From NCBI GenBank assembly GCA_043803815.1, contig JAZDJR010000020.1:1-13595 (forward strand): DNA of 13,595 bases, written 5' to 3'. Under the pieces are notes generated by a model, which saw only the letters and a list, made by a program, of their open reading frames with translations, was not told the origin of the DNA and searched no databases. This document shows, one piece after another, positions 209 to 11,659 of this stretch (position 1 is its first letter; each line of letters starts with the position of its first letter). A program made the translations under genes and the position numbers. Source of the DNA: Candidatus Micrarchaeota archaeon. GTDB lineage: Archaea > Iainarchaeota > Iainarchaeia > Iainarchaeales > JAGVWC01.

Positions 209-2284
209 ATGCGTTCCCCAAAAGGCCAGGGTTCTTTGGAGTATTTATTGATTATTGGCGGCGGAATCCTGGTTGCGGTCGTCATTATTACGACTGTTTT
301 GCAATTGGCCAACCCGTGTGCGACAAGCGGTTCCCAACTTCTAATGGCCGGCCAGACCTGCAATACCTATACTGTTTCTTCGCCGTGTACAACCGCGCAA
401 TTGAATGGTGTTGACACAACTGGAATTTGTTCGGGAGCTGGTCCAAGTGATTGTTGTTGGACGGAAGGTGCTGCAAAAGGAAAGCAATGTTCCTTGAATC
501 CGACTGCAAAAGCCGTTTGTGCAACCGGTTCTGGCGGGACAAGTTGTACGGATGGGGACTATGATGGTTATGGTTTGGCTGGTTCTACTGGCTGTTCCCA
601 TCCGGAGGTGGATTGTGATGACACCAATCCCGCTATTCATCCAGGTGCAATTGACCTGTGCAGTACTTCCCTTCTTGATGAGGACTGTTCTGGAACCCCG
701 TTTACTTGTGGTGCGGGAACAACCTGCAATGTAGTAACCAACGAGTGTGACCCCATTGTCAATTTGTGTACCTTTACGGTTTTACCTGATGCAGTTTCTG
801 TGAGCACTGGTTTCAAAACATTTGATTTTTCTTTCGCGGGCAGTACTGAAGCTCCAACCGGTATTGTTTCAGCGAGTTCTTCCTGCGGTCTGGATGCACA
901 ATCGGATGACCCCGTGCTCACTCTTCCCTCTTACGCAACGTGTGGCACCTATTCTTCCGCCGGAAAAAAAATAGTTTCGTTCGCCCTTCAATTCCCATTC
1001 GACCCGAAAGTGTGCACTGCCACGGGAACTCCCGCACAAAATTGGTTCTGCGTCAATGAAAACTGCACGCCTGGTCAAACCCGCTGCGACCCGCTTAATC
1101 CGACAACAATCGTTCAAACCTGCCAAACCAATGTGGACACTTGCATTGTTTGGAACAATACCCAAACCTGTACCGGCGGTCAGGTCTGTTCGGGCGGCGT
1201 TTGTGTCACGCCGAGTGTTTGTGGAGATGGGGCAATCACAGGAAGCGAAACCTGCGATGACGGCGGAACAATCGCGGGGGATGGCTGTAGCGCGACTTGC
1301 CTGGTTGAGGCGGGCTTTGAGTGCTTTGGAGCGCCCAGCGATTGTTACTATGTTGTTTCTTCCTGCGGTTTTTCCGATTGGGCCTTGTACGGAACAAAAT
1401 ATACCATTCCGCTCGCAGGAATAACCACTAACACGACCAACGACTGCTTTACCATTGGCCAGGCGGGCACAACTCTGAATTGCCAGGACCGCACCATTAC
1501 TTTGAACAAACCTTCCAGTGGAGGGGTCGCGGTTAGGCTTTCGGCATCCAACACGACCTTTAAAAATTGCAACTTAATCGTGAATTCAGTCTATACAGAC
1601 TCCGGCATTTATGCTTGGGGTGCGCTAAGCAATGTGCTAGTTGAAGACAACGACATTTCAAACGCAAGACCCGGAATCCTAGTTAACATGACCGGCGCTG
1701 CTGCTAATATTCAAATATCGAAAAACCGGATAATCACGGTTGGAACGACCGGGGAGGCCGGAATCATTGTGAGCACTAGCCAATCCTGCCCCACTTGCAT
1801 TATTGGCGGGGGGGCAAACGCGAACACCATTTCAGGAACCCGAAGGGGAATTGAGGTTAACATGGCTATTGGCGTTCAAGTCCTTGACAATATTGTTTCT
1901 TCCACAGGAACTCAACCGGTTTTTTTGGTTATGGATAGCGTCAGCAATGCAATAATCCGGGGAAACCAGATATCGGGCAGTTACACTTTTGGTTCTCAAA
2001 TGGGTGTTTTGGAAATCGACGGCACCAACAACACGGTACAAAACAATTTCATTACCACCAATTCGACTGGTGCCGCCGCATTTGCGTTTTATGTGGCCGG
2101 TGCGGATAACCTGTTGACGGGAAACAATGTGTGCGGGGGGACAAACAAAAAACTCAAGGTTACCGACCACCAGACCTGGAATAGCCACGGGAATACTTGC
2201 GGAAACAATTTATGTTATGATAACGGCACTCCGCTCACGGTTTGCACGGCCGCACTGGGCCAATGCGGATCCACGTGCAGTTAA
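209..2284 (+). CDS. Cys-rich surface protein with class III (type IV pilin-like) signal peptide, MopE-like putative metal-binding motif, Myxococcus-type Cys-rich repeat and C-terminal parallel beta-helix
   Basis: N-terminus KG/QGSLEYLLIIGGGILVAVVII. CTDGDYDGYG...DCDDTNPAIHPGA..C...DEDC at about 545-688. CGDGAITGSETCDDGGTIAGDGCSATC at about 1220-1324. Asn-ladder repeats (NVLVEDNDIS, NIQISKNRI, NAIIRGNQI, NNTVQNNFI) in the C-terminal half. Confidence 0.85.
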   Translation: MRSPKGQGSLEYLLIIGGGILVAVVIITTVLQLANPCATSGSQLLMAGQTCNTYTVSSPCTTAQLNGVDTTGICSGAGPSDCCWTEGAAKGKQCSLNPTAKAVCATGSGGTSCTDGDYDGYGLAGSTGCSHPEVDCDDTNPAIHPGAIDLCSTSLLDEDCSGTPFTCGAGTTCNVVTNECDPIVNLCTFTVLPDAVSVSTGFKTFDFSFAGSTEAPTGIVSASSSCGLDAQSDDPVLTLPSYATCGTYSSAGKKIVSFALQFPFDPKVCTATGTPAQNWFCVNENCTPGQTRCDPLNPTTIVQTCQTNVDTCIVWNNTQTCTGGQVCSGGVCVTPSVCGDGAITGSETCDDGGTIAGDGCSATCLVEAGFECFGAPSDCYYVVSSCGFSDWALYGTKYTIPLAGITTNTTNDCFTIGQAGTTLNCQDRTITLNKPSSGGVAVRLSASNTTFKNCNLIVNSVYTDSGIYAWGALSNVLVEDNDISNARPGILVNMTGAAANIQISKNRIITVGTTGEAGIIVSTSQSCPTCIIGGGANANTISGTRRGIEVNMAIGVQVLDNIVSSTGTQPVFLVMDSVSNAIIRGNQISGSYTFGSQMGVLEIDGTNNTVQNNFITTNSTGAAAFAFYVAGADNLLTGNNVCGGTNKKLKVTDHQTWNSHGNTCGNNLCYDNGTPLTVCTAALGQCGSTCS

Positions 2285-3601: not shown

Positions 3602-3607
3602 TTTAAA
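3602..3607. promoter_or_regulatory. Palindromic TTTAAA, candidate shared TATA box for divergent trm5 and DUF63 genes
   Basis: 31 nt from the ATG at 3570 (minus) and 27 nt from the ATG at 3635 (plus). Confidence 0.5.
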
Positions 3608-3634
3608 ACAAATTGCTCAAAAAGAATAGCTAAC

Positions 3635-4489
3635 ATGGCAGCCGATTTTGTGTTTGAATATTTTTGCAAGCCCATTTTGCAGCGCGAAGGATACAATTTA
3701 GTCAATACGGGAGTTTACGCGGCGATTTTACTGGTCATTGCGTTCGGACTGGTCATTCCCTGGCTCAAAAAAACCAAACTGCCGCTCGACCACCGCTTTT
3801 TAGCCGCCTTATTGCCGTTTATCGTACTCGGTTCGGGTTTTCGCGTTTTCGAAGATTTGGGGCTTGTCCACCGCTCCTGCAATCCCCTTTCGCCTTGGTT
3901 TTACACCATAACCCCCGGCATTTACATTGCAGTTGGAATACTGACGATTCTGGCATTATGGATTAGCCTGAAAATCAACGGCAAAAACACACCGGAAAAA
4001 AACCCAAGCCGCATATTCAAAATTTTTGGCGGAATCGGAATCGTTTTGACGCTTCCCGTTTTGTTTTTTTTAGGAACCCGAACAATCGTTTGGGACGGAA
4101 TCGCGGGAGTCTTTTTTTTAGCCGCGCTTACCACGGCGATTGCTGTTTTGGCAAGCAAAAGATTTTCCAAAACCAAAAAACTGTTCGAAATCCTGCTTAA
4201 CCGGCTTGTTTTTTTCGGGCAAATGCTTGACGCCAATGCGACGTTTGTTTCCCTGCAATTTTACAATTGCAGCGAACAGCACGTCTTGTCCGCGGGAATC
4301 ATAAGTTCTTTCGGGCCATTCGCGTTTGTCATTGTCAAATTCGCCCTGATGTATCTGGTGCTTTATTTTGCGGATAAAGAAATCGAAGACGAAAAAACGC
4401 GGCAGTTTGTCAAAATCCTGATTGGAATCATCGGCTTTGCCCCGGGAATACGCGACGCGCTTACTTTGGGCGTTGGCACGTGCTTGTAA
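3635..4489 (+). CDS. DUF63 family archaeal multi-pass membrane protein
   Basis: GYNLVNTGVYA, LLPFIVLGSGFRVFED, TPGIY, GQMLDANATF, EQHVLS and GFAPGIRD motifs, with many hydrophobic segments. Confidence 0.85.
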   Translation: MAADFVFEYFCKPILQREGYNLVNTGVYAAILLVIAFGLVIPWLKKTKLPLDHRFLAALLPFIVLGSGFRVFEDLGLVHRSCNPLSPWFYTITPGIYIAVGILTILALWISLKINGKNTPEKNPSRIFKIFGGIGIVLTLPVLFFLGTRTIVWDGIAGVFFLAALTTAIAVLASKRFSKTKKLFEILLNRLVFFGQMLDANATFVSLQFYNCSEQHVLSAGIISSFGPFAFVIVKFALMYLVLYFADKEIEDEKTRQFVKILIGIIGFAPGIRDALTLGVGTCL

Positions 4490-4497
4490 GAAAAAAG

Positions 4498-5226
4498 TCA
4501 TTTTCCAATTACAAAACCGGCATACTTTTGCATTTGGGGGTCTTTTTGGAGCATTTTAAATGTGCGCTCTAAAATCCGAAATACGGTTATTGGAACTACG
4601 CTGTATTTTTCCGCCAGTTCGTTTTGAGTATAAACGTGTCCATCCAAAAGCCCGAAGCGGTCCAACACCAGTTCCCTGCGCTGCCGTATAGACAACCGCC
4701 CCTTTATCTCCCCTGAAATAACCAAATTGCGGATAATCCGAGCCAGATTCGCTCGAATCTTCGGGTCCGATAACTCCGAAGGGCGATGAATCAATTTGCG
4801 CGTGTCCGGCACCGAGGCATACTTTTGCTCGTCGCTTTCTTCACTTGGTTGCTTTTCGGCACGTGACTGATTAAGGGAAACCGGAATTGCACTCCGTTTT
4901 AACCGCTTGCACCGAGTCACTTCATCCCCAAGCGCTTTTTGAACCACAGAATAAGCATAAGTGCCAAAACGTGTTCCACGGCTTTTGTCAAATTTCTCGC
5001 TCGCACGGTCCATGGCTATTGCACCGATTTGGCACAAGTCCTCCAAATCCACGCCATTTGCCCGCAACAAAACCAAATGCGCTTCCAAAACTTTGTTTGC
5101 CACGCTACGAATTAGCGCCGCATTTTTAAGGTACACTTGCTGCCAACGAACCGTTTTTTGGGAAACCCTACGCGTTGGGCGTTTTCCCTTTTTGGAAGGA
5201 GAATTCTTTTTCACGGTTATAGGCAT
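4498..5226 (-). CDS. Bacterial-type sigma-70 family protein (regions 2 and 4), copy 1
   Basis: Region 2: LIRSVANK...DLEDLCQIGAIAMDRASEKFDKSRGTRFGTYA. Region 4: RRELVLDRFGLLDGHVYTQNELAEKYSV. Confidence 0.88.
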   Translation of the reverse strand: MPITVKKNSPSKKGKRPTRRVSQKTVRWQQVYLKNAALIRSVANKVLEAHLVLLRANGVDLEDLCQIGAIAMDRASEKFDKSRGTRFGTYAYSVVQKALGDEVTRCKRLKRSAIPVSLNQSRAEKQPSEESDEQKYASVPDTRKLIHRPSELSDPKIRANLARIIRNLVISGEIKGRLSIRQRRELVLDRFGLLDGHVYTQNELAEKYSVVPITVFRILERTFKMLQKDPQMQKYAGFVIGK

Positions 5227-5244
5227 GCCATCAGTCGATATAAT

Positions 5245-5263
5245 TACCCAAAAGGGTATTTAA
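5245..5263 (-). promoter_or_regulatory. Archaeal TATA box (TTAAATA, 5257-5263) of sigma copy 1 with overlapping TACCC-N4-GGGTA palindrome
   Basis: Minus strand reads GCAAAAAACTATTAAATACCCTTTTGGGTA: an A-rich BRE-like stretch, then the TATA box 30 nt upstream of the ATG. Confidence 0.55.
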
Positions 5264-5321
5264 TAGTTTTTTGCAGAGAATGACAAAAAACAGGGCGATT
5301 CAAACAAAGCACCTCGTCAGC

Positions 5322-5438
5322 TTTGCGGACTCCAAGCCCAAACCAAAAAAAAACGCGGTTTCATCAAAATCGCAATCGCCAGTATCGGTTTGCCTCGCCT
5401 TCGAACCGCTTACCTTAGAGGTTGGTACCTGCCTTTAG
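5322..5438 (+). pseudogene. Decayed second copy of the DUF63 gene 3' end
   Basis: Aligns by eye with 4367-4489: tttgcggac vs tttgcggat; aaaacgcgg in both; atcaaaatc vs gtcaaaatc; IKIAIASIGL vs VKILIGIIGF; LTLEVGTCL* vs LTLGVGTCL*. Frameshifts separate the blocks. Confidence 0.8.
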
Positions 5439-6090
5439 GTTTTTTCTTCCCGTGTTCAATCAAATCATACAATTTTTGTACATCCGGACGTTCCCGCAAA
5501 AGCGAGAATACTATTTCTTGGTAGAGCCGTACGTTTTCCTTTGACATCTTAAATCGTCTGCCAACCCCTTCCAATGTTCTTGGATGACCGTCTTTCAAAC
5601 CGGTTCTCAACAAAAAAATTTCTTTTGCTCTGCCCTGAATCGAAAGGGAATCCACAATCCGGGCCAACTCGGCTCGAATATGCGGGCGAAGCCTTTCAAA
5701 TGCTATTGTATCGGGTTTATCGGCCAAGGCATCACCCCTAAAGCGCGATAAGGACGTTTCTCGCATTTCGCGTTTGCGCAGCAGGCTACTGAACTCGCGT
5801 TTTATGATGTTTACGGCAAATGTGGAAAATCGAAACCCCCTTGCCTCGTCAAATCCCACTACCGCCCTTCGCAAGGCAAGGCGGCCTTGCTGAACAACAT
5901 CGCCAAAACCATATTTGGACTGAATGGCACGCTTGTTTTTTTTCCAAAACTTATTGGCAAATGCGAAGACAAGCCCCTCGTTTTCCAGCATCTTTTTATT
6001 AACCTCTTCGATTGAAAGAACACGTTTTACCCTAATCGGTTTGGGCTTAACCGGCTTTGTTTTCGCTTGATGGCTGAACGGCGTTGGCAT
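5410..6090 (-). CDS. Bacterial-type sigma-70 family protein (regions 2 and 4), copy 2
   Basis: Region 2: NEGLVFAFANK...DVVQQGRLALRRAVVGFDEARGFRFSTFA. Region 4: KEIFLLRTGLKDGHPRTLEGVGRRFKMSKENVR. Confidence 0.88.
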   Translation of the reverse strand: MPTPFSHQAKTKPVKPKPIRVKRVLSIEEVNKKMLENEGLVFAFANKFWKKNKRAIQSKYGFGDVVQQGRLALRRAVVGFDEARGFRFSTFAVNIIKREFSSLLRKREMRETSLSRFRGDALADKPDTIAFERLRPHIRAELARIVDSLSIQGRAKEIFLLRTGLKDGHPRTLEGVGRRFKMSKENVRLYQEIVFSLLRERPDVQKLYDLIEHGKKKPKGRYQPLR

Positions 6091-6114
6091 GAATCAATTA
6101 TGCATGAAATGAAC

Positions 6115-6121
6115 TATTTAA
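6115..6121. promoter_or_regulatory. Candidate bidirectional TATA box shared by sigma copy 2 and dph5
   Basis: TATTTAA (TTAAATA on minus) lies exactly 24 nt from both ATGs (6090 and 6146) and is the same heptamer as at 5257-5263. Confidence 0.6.
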
Positions 6122-6145
6122 CCATTACTGAACAAAGAAATAGGT

Positions 6146-6919
6146 ATGCTTTACCTGATTGGAATCGGGCTCAAGCCCGACCACCTGACCAGCGAAGCGA
6201 TTGCGGCCGCCGGTGTCTGCGACGAAATATACCTGGAATACTATACCAGCCGCCTTGCGGAATCCGATTTGGCGGACCTGCAGCAAAAATTAAAATGCAA
6301 AAAAAAAATCGTTCCGTTAAGCCGCGAAGACGTCGAAGGCGGAATTTCGGACCTGGTCTTGGAATCGCGCCCGCGAAACGTGGGCATACTGGTCATCGGA
6401 AACCCGCTGATTGCGACCACGCACATCGAATTTTTGCTTGAAGCCAAAAACCAAAACGCTGCCATTCGGATTATTCCGGGAATTTCCGTTTACGACCTGG
6501 TTCCCGTCTGCGGCTTGGACGCCTACAAATTCGGCCGCGTTTCCACCGTTGTCTTTCAGGAAAAAGACTATTCTCCCGAATCGTTTTTTGATTTTATTTC
6601 AGGCAATCACGACAACGGACTGCATTCGCTTTGCTTATTGGATATCCGCGCCGAAATCGAACAACTAATGACGATTAATCAGGCCCTGGAAATCCTCGAA
6701 AAAATCGCGGAGAAAAAAAAACAAATCTGGTTTTCCAAAAGCATCATTGTCGGCCTCAGCGGATTATCGCACGCCAACCAAAAAATAATGGTCGGAACAC
6801 CAGCAGAACTGCGGGAAGAAAAATTCGAATTGTTTCCCCAATCCCTGATTGTCTGCGGAAAACTCAACGGCAAGGAAAAAGAAGCCTTGCAAAAACTGCA
6901 CGGGTGGAAAGAAGAATGA
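6146..6919 (+). CDS. dph5: Diphthine synthase
   Basis: MLYLIGIGL, IYLEYYTS, REDVE, LVIGNPLIATTH, GLDAYKFGRVSTV, GLHSLCLLDI and PQSLIVCG motifs. Confidence 0.96.
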   Translation: MLYLIGIGLKPDHLTSEAIAAAGVCDEIYLEYYTSRLAESDLADLQQKLKCKKKIVPLSREDVEGGISDLVLESRPRNVGILVIGNPLIATTHIEFLLEAKNQNAAIRIIPGISVYDLVPVCGLDAYKFGRVSTVVFQEKDYSPESFFDFISGNHDNGLHSLCLLDIRAEIEQLMTINQALEILEKIAEKKKQIWFSKSIIVGLSGLSHANQKIMVGTPAELREEKFELFPQSLIVCGKLNGKEKEALQKLHGWKEE

Positions 6920-7239
6920 AAAACAAACCCGATTCCCGTTCCAATCCGACCGATTCCAATAACCTGGAAAAAAAAACCGAACACTACGAAAAAATCACCG
7001 CCAAAGCGCTTGGAATAGTAACTGTTTTTCCCAACCTATCCGCGGAAAAAAAAGCCCAAGCCAATGATTTTTTGGATTTGGCCAAACGCTATTTTGACGA
7101 TGCCCGCTATTTCCGCCAAAAAGGAGACTTGGCAACCGCATTGGCCGCGTTTTCGTATGCCCACGCCTGGCTGGACGCCGGAGTCCGAGGCAAAATACTG
7201 GACGGAAAACAAAACGACAAACTATTCGTACTGCCGTGA
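6916..7239 (+). CDS. DUF357 domain protein
   Basis: FLDLAKRYFDDARYF..KGD...ALAAFSYAHAWLDAG motif. ATGA overlap with the dph5 stop places the start at 6916. DUF357 is a common dph5 neighbour in archaea. Confidence 0.9.
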   Translation: MKNKPDSRSNPTDSNNLEKKTEHYEKITAKALGIVTVFPNLSAEKKAQANDFLDLAKRYFDDARYFRQKGDLATALAAFSYAHAWLDAGVRGKILDGKQNDKLFVLP

Positions 7240-9773: not shown

Positions 9774-10652
9774 GTGCCCAAAATCCGAACCGCCGAACAG
9801 GTGCAAAAGGCCATTGACAAAAGGGGGTTTCCTTCCAGAAGCCGGGAAGAAAGCCTGCTGCTGCACCTTTTTCGCTGGTCGGAAGGAAACGCCAAAAAAG
9901 ACATTGTCCGGCGGCTGGATGAACTAAACAAAACCAATCGGCCGAAACTTTCAACAAACGTCATCCAAAGAAACCGGCAAAAGGCCAATCTGGCCCGCTG
10001 GCAGGAATTTTTCACCATTAACCGCGACCGAATCATGCAGGCCCTAAACGAAAGGAATTTGGATGCCGTTAATGCGTATCTGGCCAAAGGACTGCAAATA
10101 GCCAAGGGAAGAAAAGCGCTGTCCGACCTTGCCGGCTTGCTGGATTCATTTTCCGATGTTTGCCTGAAAGTAAGAACCCGAAATTCCAAAGCAGAAAATT
10201 ACGCAAAAACCGCTTTGGTTCAGGCGATTATTTGCGCAGAAAAAGCGCGCGATTTTTTTTATGCCGACCGGCTACTACACAAAGCCAAAATCAACCGCAT
10301 TCCATTGACAACGCCTTGGAGCAGATTTTTTCAAAACTATTTCAAGGGCGAATTCACCAAAGCGGCCCGGCAAAATCCCGAGTACGTTTTTGATTTATTA
10401 AAAGATAACCGGTTTGACGCGCTGCTGCGCAAAGAACAGGAAAGCCTTGCGTACTGCTGGCTATGCGTGGCGGACCGGCTTTCAGCCGACCAACCCGCCG
10501 TTCCGGAAGACCGGATAGAAAACCGAAAAAAAGTTCGTTACTGCTGGAAAAGCGCTTTTTTTGCCGCGAAAAAAAGCCAAAACGAAAAATTCGCGGAAAG
10601 CATCCGGCGAAATGCGGAAAAAGAAGGCATCGAAGTAAAGTGGACGCCCTAA
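9774..10652 (+). CDS. Hypothetical basic all-alpha-helical protein, paralog A
   Basis: AGGTGA RBS before the GTG start. End-to-end similarity to 10718-11659. Confidence 0.8.
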   Translation: MPKIRTAEQVQKAIDKRGFPSRSREESLLLHLFRWSEGNAKKDIVRRLDELNKTNRPKLSTNVIQRNRQKANLARWQEFFTINRDRIMQALNERNLDAVNAYLAKGLQIAKGRKALSDLAGLLDSFSDVCLKVRTRNSKAENYAKTALVQAIICAEKARDFFYADRLLHKAKINRIPLTTPWSRFFQNYFKGEFTKAARQNPEYVFDLLKDNRFDALLRKEQESLAYCWLCVADRLSADQPAVPEDRIENRKKVRYCWKSAFFAAKKSQNEKFAESIRRNAEKEGIEVKWTP

Positions 10653-10717
10653 ATCAACGCTTTTTCGGCTGCAAAACCATTATTTATTCCAATCAGCCCT
10701 ACTTTTACTGAATCGCC

Positions 10718-11659
10718 ATGTCAACTCCACGCCGGCCCATTATCAGGAACAAAAGGCTCGCTCGCAGAGTCGTAAAAGCCATTAACCGGGGCGTTTTGAA
10801 AGCCGCGGGCCTGACACGCCAACAACACATCGATGAACTCCTTCAGGCGCTTAGTCGCGCCCAAACCACAGCCGCCAAAAACGTGATTAAAAACCAGATA
10901 CAAGCGATCCAAGAAAGCGAACCCCAAAGGCCCGGATTGCAAAGGGAACTGGACACGTTAGTCACGGCACGAAAACAAAAACAAAATGCGGCTTGGGACA
11001 AGTACTGGCAAAAAAACCAATCCCTGTTCAATGACTATCTCAAGAACGCAAAATTCCCCGAAGCCATCCTCTTGCTTGAAGAAGCGGGAAAATATGCAAA
11101 AACGCAAAAAGCACGGGCATTCCTGATGGACGGCTGGCAGGAAACCGGAAGCCTACTGCTGAAAAAAATAAACTCTCTTGAAAACCAAAAAGGAAAACGC
11201 GGCGGCGCGGAACAGCCCCTGCGGTATTTGGCAGGCATTGCTTTTTCAAATGCAATTATTCTGGCTGAAAAAAACCGGTTTTTCACCATCGCCGACGAAT
11301 TATTCCACACGGCCAAAAGCGCCAAACTCGCAATCCAGACCCCTTCAAACAAGTGCCTTTCCGAAAACGGTGTCAAAGGAATCCTCGCCATGAAACAAAA
11401 CCGTTTCGACGTTGTTTTCGGCATTCTTTTCAAGGCTGACGAATATGCGGCCACACGGGATGATTTTCGCGGAATCAGTTATTTATGGAAAGAATTAGCC
11501 CAAAAAATTCCCCACGCCGAAAACAGGGCCCTTTACCACCACATGGAAGCGACCGCGTGGGAAAATTCGGTCCAAGCCGCCCGAAAAAGCGGCGACCGCG
11601 AATTAGCCCAGGAAATAACCCGCTTAGCCGTCCAAAACGGAGTGCAAAACATACCATGA
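10718..11659 (+). CDS. Hypothetical basic all-alpha-helical protein, paralog B
   Basis: 313-aa ORF with its own AT-rich TATA-like element (ATTATTTATT) upstream. Shares blocks with paralog A, e.g. AIILAEKNRFFTIADELFHTAK vs AIICAEKARDFFYADRLLHKAK. Confidence 0.8.
   Translation: MSTPRRPIIRNKRLARRVVKAINRGVLKAAGLTRQQHIDELLQALSRAQTTAAKNVIKNQIQAIQESEPQRPGLQRELDTLVTARKQKQNAAWDKYWQKNQSLFNDYLKNAKFPEAILLLEEAGKYAKTQKARAFLMDGWQETGSLLLKKINSLENQKGKRGGAEQPLRYLAGIAFSNAIILAEKNRFFTIADELFHTAKSAKLAIQTPSNKCLSENGVKGILAMKQNRFDVVFGILFKADEYAATRDDFRGISYLWKELAQKIPHAENRALYHHMEATAWENSVQAARKSGDRELAQEITRLAVQNGVQNIP

What the first reader, a model, noticed from the sequence alone, without database searches (positions are those of the whole stretch)
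4498..6090. Tandem bacterial sigma-70-like genes in an archaeal genome, under archaeal promoters
Seen: two intact genes with sigma regions 2 and 4 between DUF63 and dph5, each preceded by TTAAATA. They also share a linker motif (IRANLARII / IRAELARIV) and a C-terminal PxxQK. Established: archaeal RNA polymerase initiates with TBP/TFB, not sigma. Sigma-like genes in DPANN genomes have been reported (Rinke et al. 2013), but I know of no established function. Inference: a retained, diversifying family that either acts as an archaeal regulator or targets bacterial RNA polymerase in a host or competitor.
Basis: partly seen in the sequence, partly recalled or inferred. Interest (0 to 1): 0.85.

Follow-up and report, generated by a model that had tools for sequence, protein, structure and literature searches.

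The report
Compact sigma-like gene pair in DPANN archaeon
Two neighbouring genes in a small archaeal genome really do encode stripped-down relatives of bacterial sigma factors; such genes in this group of archaea are already in print, their job is still unknown, and their anatomy points to ordinary DNA-binding regulators rather than true sigma factors.

Summary
Window 5410-6090 (-) and 4498-5226 (-) are intact ORFs of 226 and 242 aa. Both pass Pfam Sigma70_r2 and NCBIfam TIGR02937, and the model of the first matches group-1 sigma structures. Each has TTAAATA 24 or 30 nt before its ATG. The flanking genes are archaeal, and the genome has one archaeal RNA polymerase, one TBP and one TFB. A chimera is very unlikely: the position is shared with a relative, and a family member lies in a one-contig genome.

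Sigma-70 genes in DPANN archaea are already published (Castelle 2021; Rinke 2013 via a review), so this is a new member of a known kind.

New detail: the pair belongs to a compact, fast-evolving family. Strong matches occur in 10 of 215 genomes of the phylum. Compared with bacterial primary sigmas the family has:
- no sigma-3 domain;
- no tryptophan pair in region 2.3 (0 of 24 rows);
- no acidic 3.2 linker;
- a basic N-terminal tail;
- in some members, a fused winged-helix domain.

My reading (about 0.5) is a DNA-binding regulator acting on the archaeon's own genes. A real RNA polymerase partner is not excluded (about 0.2). An anti-bacterial effector role is unlikely.

The parts
5410..6090 (-). 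sigA' : 226-aa sigma-like protein. It has a basic N-terminal tail (about residues 1-33), a sigma region 1.2/2 domain (about 27-110), a short disordered 3.2-like linker (110-126) and a sigma-4 HTH domain (about 129-213).
   Evidence: ORF. Pfam and NCBIfam matches. AlphaFold2 mean pLDDT 78.8. Foldseek probability 1.00 to group-1 sigma chains.
4498..5226 (-). sigB' : 242-aa paralogue, 29% identical to sigA'. It has a basic tail, a sigma-2 domain (28-111), a longer disordered linker (114-150) and a sigma-4-like domain (155-233). The recognition helix of that domain no longer carries the usual residues.
   Evidence: AlphaFold2 mean pLDDT 71.3. Column comparison.
6115..6121 (-). TATA-like heptamer TTAAATA, 24 nt before the sigA' ATG. 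On the + strand it reads TATTTAA, 24 nt before the dph5 ATG (6146). It may be a shared bidirectional TATA.
   Evidence: Function inferred from position only.
5257..5263 (-). TATA-like heptamer TTAAATA, 30 nt before the sigB' ATG.
   Evidence: Function inferred from position only.
5345..5353 (-). Run of nine T on the coding strand, 57-65 nt after the sigA' stop. It is a likely archaeal oligo-T terminator, which would make the two genes separate transcription units.
   Evidence: Read. Inference.
4491..4496 (-). Run of six T directly after the sigB' stop codon (4498-4500).
   Evidence: Read. Inference.
3635..4489 (+). DUF63 membrane protein (context). In a same-order genome it lies directly next to dph5, with no sigma gene between.
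   Evidence: Synteny.
6146..6919 (+). Diphthine synthase (dph5; context), divergent from sigA'.

Best explanation
The two genes are real, chromosomal genes of a small DPANN-type archaeon. Named homologues of the neighbouring dph5 point to Diapherotrites/Iainarchaeota-like organisms.

They encode members of a compact sigma-70-derived family with this layout: a lysine/arginine/proline-rich N-terminal tail, a sigma region 1.2/2 domain, a short remnant of region 3.2, and a sigma-4 helix-turn-helix.

The family is closest to bacterial group-1/2 (primary-like) sigmas. It has lost the sigma-3 domain, the tryptophan pair of region 2.3 and the acidic character of the 3.2 linker. Where primary sigmas have an acidic region 1.1 (recalled), it carries a basic tail.

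Each gene is read from its own archaeal TATA-type promoter.

The most likely mechanism is inferred, not shown. The free protein binds DNA through the sigma-4 HTH, helped by the basic tail and perhaps by sigma-2. It then acts as a gene-specific regulator of TBP/TFB/RNA polymerase initiation in the archaeon itself. It would not be a promoter-melting initiation factor. The two diverged copies would have different targets.
For: Identity:
- Pfam, NCBIfam and PHROG sigma matches.
- A PDB profile search finds primary SigA best (8h3v E 2.6e-22), with region 3 appearing as an insertion in the targets.
- Fold match.

Archaeal setting:
- DUF63, dph5, TYW2/Trm5, a class III signal peptide protein and DUF357 lie on the same contig.
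- GC is 0.44-0.52 across the window, 0.46 over the pair.
- The genome has one Rpb1-type polymerase, one TBP and one TFB.
- G003 has a sigma-like gene in the same position next to dph5-DUF357-...-NUDIX.
- Family members occur in the one-contig genome G032. Pfam Sigma70_r2 matches also occur in G018 (one contig) and G017 (two contigs).

Family anatomy (24 family rows against 41 bacterial-side rows):
- W at the two region-2.3 columns: 0 of 24 and 0 of 24, against 35 of 41 and 41 of 41.
- About 50 reference positions of sigma-3 are absent.
- Linker median net charge is 0 against -8.
- The N-terminal tail is net positive in 20 of the 21 rows that have one.
- The recognition helix keeps the usual pattern in about half of the family.

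Other points:
- Long forms fuse an ArsR/MarR/IclR-like winged helix to the sigma-like module.
- Archaeal regulators with sigma-4/LuxR-type HTH domains, such as Tfx, are listed in PMC5413776 (passages read).
- No zf-HC2 or HATPase_c_2 anti-sigma match was found in this 85.6%-complete genome. This agrees with Castelle 2021.
Against: - Nothing here shows DNA binding or expression.
- The most conserved columns of the family include D64 and Q67 in region 2.2, R107 at the end of 2.4, and the S-L of region 3.2. In bacterial sigmas these lie on polymerase-contacting parts (recalled), so an RNA polymerase partner remains possible.
- ECF sigmas also lack the tryptophan pair and sigma-3 yet are true sigmas (recalled).
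- The family set was defined by a tree built on the same alignment in which the columns were then counted, so those counts are partly circular.
- In sigB' the recognition helix has lost the usual residues, so sequence-specific binding by it is uncertain.
- The one measurable within-genus pair has omega 0.42, against 0.096 for a neighbouring gene. This means weak constraint.
Confidence: 0.5

Rival explanations
1. The proteins are RNA polymerase-bound factors. The sigma-2-like domain docks on the clamp coiled-coil of the archaeal Rpo1 subunit, the site homologous to the bacterial beta-prime clamp helices. The sigma-4 HTH reads an upstream element. The protein would then add to or replace part of TFB/TFE function at some promoters.
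For: - Region 2.1-2.2 is the best conserved part of both proteins. D64 and Q67 are nearly invariant in the family.
- The S-L of region 3.2 is kept in 83-91% of family rows.
- The window proteins and their 79-81% identical relatives differ least in region 2.
- The clamp coiled-coil is nearly invariant among the 23 aligned Rpo1 N-terminal parts.
Against: - In region 2.2, two glycines that are invariant on the bacterial side are A in 75% and 58% of family rows. The N between them is L in 54%.
- The acidic linker and the tryptophan pair are lost.
- The family is patchy: 10 of 215 genomes. A core initiation role is therefore excluded; only an accessory role is possible.
Confidence: 0.2
2. The genes are slowly decaying leftovers of old gene transfer from bacteria, without a present function.
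For: - The positional orthologue in G003 is only 28-31% identical. Its neighbours are mostly 43-60% (two at 30-33%) and Rpo1N is 77%.
- Omega is 0.42 in the G112/G113 pair, and G112 has an in-frame TGA near the N-terminus.
- Distribution is patchy.
- sigB' has lost the usual recognition-helix residues.
Against: - Both frames are intact, with well-placed promoters and T-run terminators.
- The fold cores are modelled with confidence.
- Family-wide motifs persist despite branch lengths of 1-4 changes per site.
- Intact relatives at 79-81% identity exist.
- Omega is still below 1.
Confidence: 0.12
3. The proteins are exported and act on the RNA polymerase of a bacterial host or competitor.
For: Only the bacterial ancestry of the fold.
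Against: - The translations show no hydrophobic N-terminal segment.
- The region 2.3 tryptophans, sigma-3 and the acidic linker are lost.
- The genes sit among housekeeping genes, with no secretion or mobile-element genes beside them.
- There are no close phage relatives.
Confidence: 0.03
4. The pair is bacterial DNA joined to archaeal DNA by mis-assembly or mis-binning.
For: None found.
Against: - Archaeal genes lie on both sides within one contig of even composition.
- The same arrangement is found in G003.
- A family member lies in the single-contig genome G032.
- All 15 rows from genomes of this order fall on the side of the 99-supported branch that holds none of the 8 named bacterial sigmas.
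- Castelle 2021 also ruled out mis-binning for such genes.
Confidence: 0.01

Closest known systems
Sigma-70-like genes of DPANN archaea (Rinke et al. 2013; Castelle et al. 2021, fam00359)
   Same: Sigma-70 family genes in small DPANN genomes, not due to mis-binning, without anti-sigma factors, beside a normal TBP/TFB/TFE set, and with unknown function. I read the Castelle passage. Rinke 2013 is known to me only through one sentence in PMC6126073 and from recall.
   Different: Castelle reports them as most common in Woesearchaeota. This genome's neighbours point to a Diapherotrites/Iainarchaeota-like lineage. Whether these two genes fall in fam00359 could not be checked, because supplements are closed. 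I did not see the anatomy described here in the passages I read, but I did not read the whole papers.
Bacterial group 1/2 sigma factors (SigA/RpoD, RpoS)
   Same: They are the best sequence and fold matches. They share a region 1.2-like start, regions 2.1-2.2, the S-L of 3.2, regions 4.1-4.2 and the C-terminal tail pattern.
   Different: The archaeal family has no region 1.1, no sigma-3 domain, no tryptophan pair and a neutral instead of acidic linker. It has a 7-8 residue insertion in region 2.1, and no bacterial core polymerase is present in the genome.
ECF (group 4) sigma factors
   Same: Two-domain sigma-2 plus sigma-4 layout without sigma-3 and without the tryptophan pair. TIGR02937 passes.
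   Different: The sequence is nearer to primary sigmas than to ECF models. Pfam Sigma70_ECF matched only 1 of the 21 frames tested, and the table does not say which. No anti-sigma partner was found. The C-terminal tail is of the primary-sigma type.
Archaeal HTH regulators with sigma-4/LuxR-type DNA-binding domains (e.g. Tfx)
   Same: A sigma-4-type helix-turn-helix used by an archaeon as an ordinary DNA-binding domain (PMC5413776, passages read). This is what I think the pair works like.
   Different: Those proteins have no sigma-2 domain. No direct sequence comparison was made here.

Membership tests
Sigma-70 family (Pfam Sigma70_r2/r4; NCBIfam TIGR02937) | Region 2 domain | tested here: met
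   Sigma70_r2 scores 44.7 and 34.9 bits against a cut-off of 24.
Sigma-70 family (Pfam Sigma70_r2/r4; NCBIfam TIGR02937) | Region 4 helix-turn-helix | tested here: inconclusive
   Pfam r4 scores 17.7 bits (cut-off 24.1) in sigA' and has no match in sigB'. TIGR02937 spans both domains and passes in both. The models show a helical domain there.
Sigma-70 family (Pfam Sigma70_r2/r4; NCBIfam TIGR02937) | Sigma fold | tested here: met
   Foldseek probability 1.00 to SigA chains, 100 matches at E <= 0.001. TM-scores are low (about 0.3) because the two domains are placed freely.
Sigma-70 family (functional definition) | Binds a bacterial-type core RNA polymerase encoded by the same organism | tested here: not met
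   The genome has only one Rpb1-type largest subunit, adjacent to an Rpb2-type gene, plus TBP and TFB. The genome is 85.6% complete.
Sigma-70 family (functional definition) | Binding to the polymerase clamp helices | not testable with these tools
   Needs a pull-down or a structure.
Group 1-3 sigma factors | Sigma-3 domain between regions 2.4 and 3.2 | tested here: not met
   It appears as an insertion of about 50 positions in the PDB and bacterial rows. Only 1 of the 21 order frames matches Pfam Sigma70_r3.
Group 1-3 sigma factors | Conserved tryptophan pair in region 2.3 | tested here: not met
   0 of 24 family rows at either column, against 35 of 41 and 41 of 41 bacterial-side rows.
ECF (group 4) sigma factors | Two-domain layout with a cognate anti-sigma factor | tested here: inconclusive
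   The layout fits. No zf-HC2 or HATPase_c_2 match was found in the genome. Other anti-sigma types were not searched.
DPANN sigma-70 protein family fam00359 (Castelle 2021) | Membership in that paper's protein cluster | not testable with these tools

The most novel reading that the evidence does not exclude
The sigma-like module is a working partner of the archaeal RNA polymerase. Sigma-2 would dock on the Rpo1 clamp coiled-coil, the site used by TFE and Spt5, while sigma-4, or a fused winged helix, reads DNA. These DPANN archaea would then run a hybrid bacterial/archaeal way of choosing promoters alongside TBP/TFB.
Probability: 0.15. Interest if true: 0.9.

Novelty: new member of a known kind. 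Interest (0 to 1): 0.45.

Why it matters
Sigma factors define bacterial transcription initiation, and archaea use TBP/TFB instead. Sigma-like genes in DPANN archaea have been known since 2013, but none has been given a function.

This locus gives a clean test case. It has two intact, separately promoted paralogues in a housekeeping neighbourhood, and they belong to a compact family with defined losses and gains. Those features turn the open question into concrete experiments: does the protein bind DNA alone, or does it bind the archaeal polymerase clamp?

If it is only a regulator, it shows how a bacterial initiation factor can be reused as a plain DNA-binding protein. If it binds the archaeal polymerase, it would be a new initiation mode.

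Tried and rejected
- Complex prediction of the sigA' sigma-2 domain (residues 25-112, alignment A4) with the first 423 residues of the organism's Rpo1 (alignment A5) gave no verdict: score 0.00, controls not run. This is neither for nor against binding.
- Sequencing runs: none was listed, and no RNA holder was listed. Read laying was therefore not used and expression is untested.
The window genes therefore have no dN/dS. All other pairs were saturated at synonymous sites, or nearly so (dS above 2), except G112/G113.
- The listing of cluster members gave few names. Of the 22 proteins asked about, 2 were named archaeon, 1 Anaerolineales bacterium and 2 had generic names only. Most tree rows therefore remain unlabelled.
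- Conserved gene neighbourhood: only lineage-level synteny was found. In family f20 the upstream neighbour is a roughly 430-aa protein with a weak, sub-threshold PHP_C match, unrelated to the N-terminal extension of the long forms.
- The tandem unknown genes at 9774-11659 were tested as possible partners. They occur in only 2 of 196 order genomes and do not track the sigma family.
- Mobile-element origin: no tRNA, no close phage match and no Rfam family. The 13-nt direct repeat bracketing the pair is coding on both sides and is probably chance.
- Bacterial-type promoters: 1 match in 4300-6300, on the other strand, against a shuffle mean of 2.2.
- The Atlas search on 10718-11659 gave only weak TPR-like leads.
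Rinke 2013 is not held.
- Literature searches for a tested function of archaeal sigma-like proteins turned up none. I read only listings and the passages cited.
Full report
**What is there.** The window is a whole 13,595-base contig (C20) of a 1.08-Mb genome in 36 contigs, 85.6% complete and 1.3% contaminated. On the - strand lie two intact ORFs: 5410-6090 (226 aa, here sigA') and 4498-5226 (242 aa, sigB').
- Both pass Pfam Sigma70_r2, with 34.9 and 44.7 bits against a cut-off of 24.
- Both pass the full-length NCBIfam model TIGR02937, with 45.4 and 52.9 bits against 42.9.
- Pfam Sigma70_r4 is sub-threshold in sigA' (17.7 against 24.1) and missing in sigB'.
- The two proteins are 29% identical.
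- AlphaFold2 models, made with a 15-row family alignment, give two confident helical domains joined by a disordered linker. Mean pLDDT is 78.8 for sigA' and 71.3 for sigB'.
- The sigA' model matches primary sigma chains in Foldseek with probability 1.00.
- A third, more distant copy lies on contig C8: 263 aa, Sigma70_r4 E 5.7e-12, r2 weak.

**Archaeal setting and promoters.** The contig also carries several archaeal-type genes:
- DUF63;
- a TP_methylase whose homologues are named diphthine synthase;
- TYW2/Trm5;
- a class III signal peptide protein;
- DUF357;
- a radical SAM protein, an acylphosphatase, a NUDIX protein and a DHH protein.

GC is even across the window. The genome has one Rpb1-type polymerase subunit, one TBP and one TFB. 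It has no zf-HC2 or HATPase_c_2 anti-sigma match.

Named dph5 homologues come from 'Candidatus Diapherotrites', 'Candidatus ainarchaeum', 'Candidatus Micrarchaeota' and unnamed archaeon records.

TTAAATA occurs only twice in the window. Both copies are on the - strand, 24 nt before the sigA' ATG and 30 nt before the sigB' ATG. The count is what chance gives; the placement is not. Other genes of the window have TTTAAAA-type elements at similar distances, for example 3602-3608 before DUF63.

The heptamer at 6115-6121 is also 24 nt from the divergent dph5 ATG, so one TATA element may serve both genes. A T9 run follows sigA' and a T6 run follows sigB', so the two genes look like separate transcription units. 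No bacterial-type promoter was found on their strand.

**Not a chimera.**
- In G003, of the same family, a sigma-like gene lies in the same place, divergent from dph5. It is followed by the same DUF357, unknown gene, radical SAM, acylphosphatase and NUDIX genes.
- In G017, of the same order, DUF63 and dph5 are directly adjacent. The pair was therefore inserted in, or lost from, this spot within the order.
- Pfam Sigma70_r2 matches occur in 11 of 41 sampled genomes of the order, among them the one-contig genomes G018 and G032 and the two-contig G017.
- This agrees with Castelle et al. 2021. They report sigma-70 genes in DPANN, ruled out mis-binning and found no anti-sigma factors (passage read).
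- A review credits Rinke et al. 2013 with the first description of archaeal sigma factors (passage read). The original paper is not held.

**The family.**
- Word-based searches found only one close relative for each gene: P0002 at 81% and P0028 at 79% identity. After those come bacterial primary sigmas, for sigA' only.
- A profile search of 1.84 billion representatives gave 65,849 hits at E <= 0.001 but only 4 at E <= 1e-30.
- Among the best hits is a set of 164-246-aa proteins (most about 200-245 aa) that match end to end. Two of them carry the source name 'sigma factor [archaeon]'.
- A profile of 15 such proteins (A4) finds matches at E <= 1e-5 in 36 of 196 genomes of the order.
- Strong matches (E <= 1e-20) occur in 10 of 215 genomes of the phylum, 8 of 79 genera, and 1 of 58 high-quality genomes.
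- Five of those ten genomes contributed rows to the profile, or near-copies of rows. G112, G097, G141, G032 and G088 are independent.
- In a quick maximum-likelihood tree of 70 rows, one branch (SH-aLRT 99) separates two groups. One group holds 41 rows: all 8 named bacterial sigmas and 33 unlabelled hits. The other holds 29 rows: both window proteins, 15 rows from genomes of this order and 12 unlabelled hits.
- This fits a single archaeal group but does not prove it. Most rows are unlabelled, only primary-like sigmas served as the other side, and branches are very long (median end branch 0.9, many above 1.5).
- The two window paralogues do not group together, so the pair is not a recent duplication.

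**Anatomy compared with primary sigmas.** The best solved relatives are primary SigA proteins (8h3v, 8gzg, mycobacterial SigA), and their region 3 shows up as an insertion. I compared columns between 24 family rows and 41 bacterial-side rows. These groups come from the tree on the same alignment, so the counts are partly circular.
1. About 50 positions of sigma-3 are missing. The deletion runs from just after the conserved R that ends region 2.4 to the S-L motif of region 3.2.
2. The tryptophan pair of region 2.3 is absent: 0 of 24 at both columns, against 35 of 41 and 41 of 41. Where cyanobacterial SigA has YATWWIRQ, sigA' has FAVNIIKR and sigB' has YAYSVVQK.
3. Two glycines of region 2.2 that are invariant on the bacterial side are A in 75% and 58% of family rows. 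The N between them is L in 54%.
4. A 7-8-residue insertion sits in region 2.1.
5. The linker is neutral, with a median net charge of 0 against -8.
6. The part before region 2.1 is K/R/P-rich and net positive in 20 of the 21 rows that have one.
7. The sigma-4 recognition helix keeps the usual pattern in about half of the family. It is partly kept in sigA' and lost in sigB'.

From recall: the tryptophans help melt the -10 element, and the acidic region 1.1 and the acidic 3.2 finger act inside the holoenzyme. The family has thus shed the parts that make sense only inside a bacterial holoenzyme and has gained a DNA-friendly tail.

Some members (G141 646 aa, G032 451 aa, P0032 632 aa) carry an N-terminal ArsR/MarR/IclR-like winged helix fused to the sigma-like module. 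G088 has a short form followed by such a long form.

**Rate of change.**
- The positional orthologue in G003 is 28-31% identical to sigA'. Most neighbouring genes are 43-60% identical (two are 30-33%), and the Rpo1 N-terminal part is 77%.
- Only one pair in the family was close enough for dN/dS. G112 against G113 gave dN 0.21, dS 0.50 and omega 0.42 over 190 codons. The neighbouring 497-aa gene gave omega 0.096.
- G112 also has an in-frame TGA near the N-terminus.
- Constraint is therefore weak but present.
- Against this stands an unexplained point. The window proteins have relatives at 79-81% identity, while the best non-self dph5 hit is only 63%.

**Mechanism.** The best-supported reading is that these are DNA-binding regulators derived from a sigma factor. 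They would be expressed from archaeal promoters and act on the archaeon's own TBP/TFB-dependent transcription. I put this at about 0.5.

The main rival, at about 0.2, is an accessory factor that still docks on the polymerase clamp. It rests on the strong conservation of regions 2.1-2.2 and of the S-L of region 3.2. The one complex prediction allowed gave no verdict and counts for nothing either way.

Decay (0.12), an anti-bacterial effector (0.03) and a chimera (0.01) are less likely, for the reasons given under the rival explanations.

**Novelty.** The kind is known, since sigma-70 genes in DPANN archaea are in print, so this is a new member. In my searches and the passages I read, I did not see the family anatomy, the insertion between DUF63 and dph5, the possible shared TATA or the winged-helix fusions. 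I did not read the whole papers, and the supplements are closed, so I do not claim these points are unpublished.

Noticed in passing
G000:C16 (L022 1492-3897, +): The Rpo1 (A') gene carries an intein-like insert after about residue 478, with a LAGLIDADG-type motif. This gives a 1365-aa open frame. In 22 of 24 relatives the frame is 863-893 aa; the other two are cut by contig ends.
   Followed up: partly
window 9774-10652 (+) and 10718-11659 (+): A second tandem pair of paralogues, 25% identical, with no Pfam family. With this query it was found only in G000 and G003 among 196 genomes of the order. The Atlas gives only weak TPR-like leads.
   Followed up: partly
window 6115-6121: One AT-rich heptamer lies exactly 24 nt from both the sigA' ATG (6090, -) and the dph5 ATG (6146, +). 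It may be a shared bidirectional TATA box. G003 has a similar 52-bp divergent spacer.
   Followed up: partly
window 4417-4429 and 6154-6166: An exact 13-nt direct repeat brackets the sigma pair. Both copies are coding and give the same LIGI peptide in DUF63 and dph5, so it is probably chance rather than an insertion scar.
   Followed up: partly
L099 287-2224 (G141), L032 7402-8754 (G032), P0032, P0034, P0051; L050 2155-3123 (G088): Long forms of the family carry an N-terminal part of about 240-430 aa. In the three scanned (G141, G032, P0032) it contains a winged helix of the ArsR/MarR/IclR type, fused to the sigma-like module. In G088 a short form is followed by a long-form gene.
   Followed up: partly
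proteins P0036, P0040, P0050, P0060; L102 (G095): Some profile hits have many repeated sigma-4-like stretches, for example 1692 aa with 12 stretches. The G095 frame of 326 aa holds two sigma-4-like units.
   Followed up: no
window 6146-7239: dph5 and DUF357 overlap by 16 nt as two frames here. In some relatives they are one fused protein: P0181, P0228, P0252 and P0269 carry both Pfam families.
   Followed up: no
window 5410-6090 and proteins P0001, P0002: The stored gene call for sigA' (193 aa) and its 81% relative (203 aa) start at the internal M34. The TATA position and the basic tails of other family members favour the 226-aa form.
   Followed up: partly
The sigma-like proteins have relatives at 79-81% identity, but the adjacent dph5 has none above 63%. 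The reason is unexplained: a missing sibling gene, or independent movement of the sigma genes.
   Followed up: no
window 209-2284 (+): A 691-aa protein with a class III (archaeal pilin-type) signal peptide, a MopE metal-binding motif and DUF4215. It is probably a surface protein.
   Followed up: no
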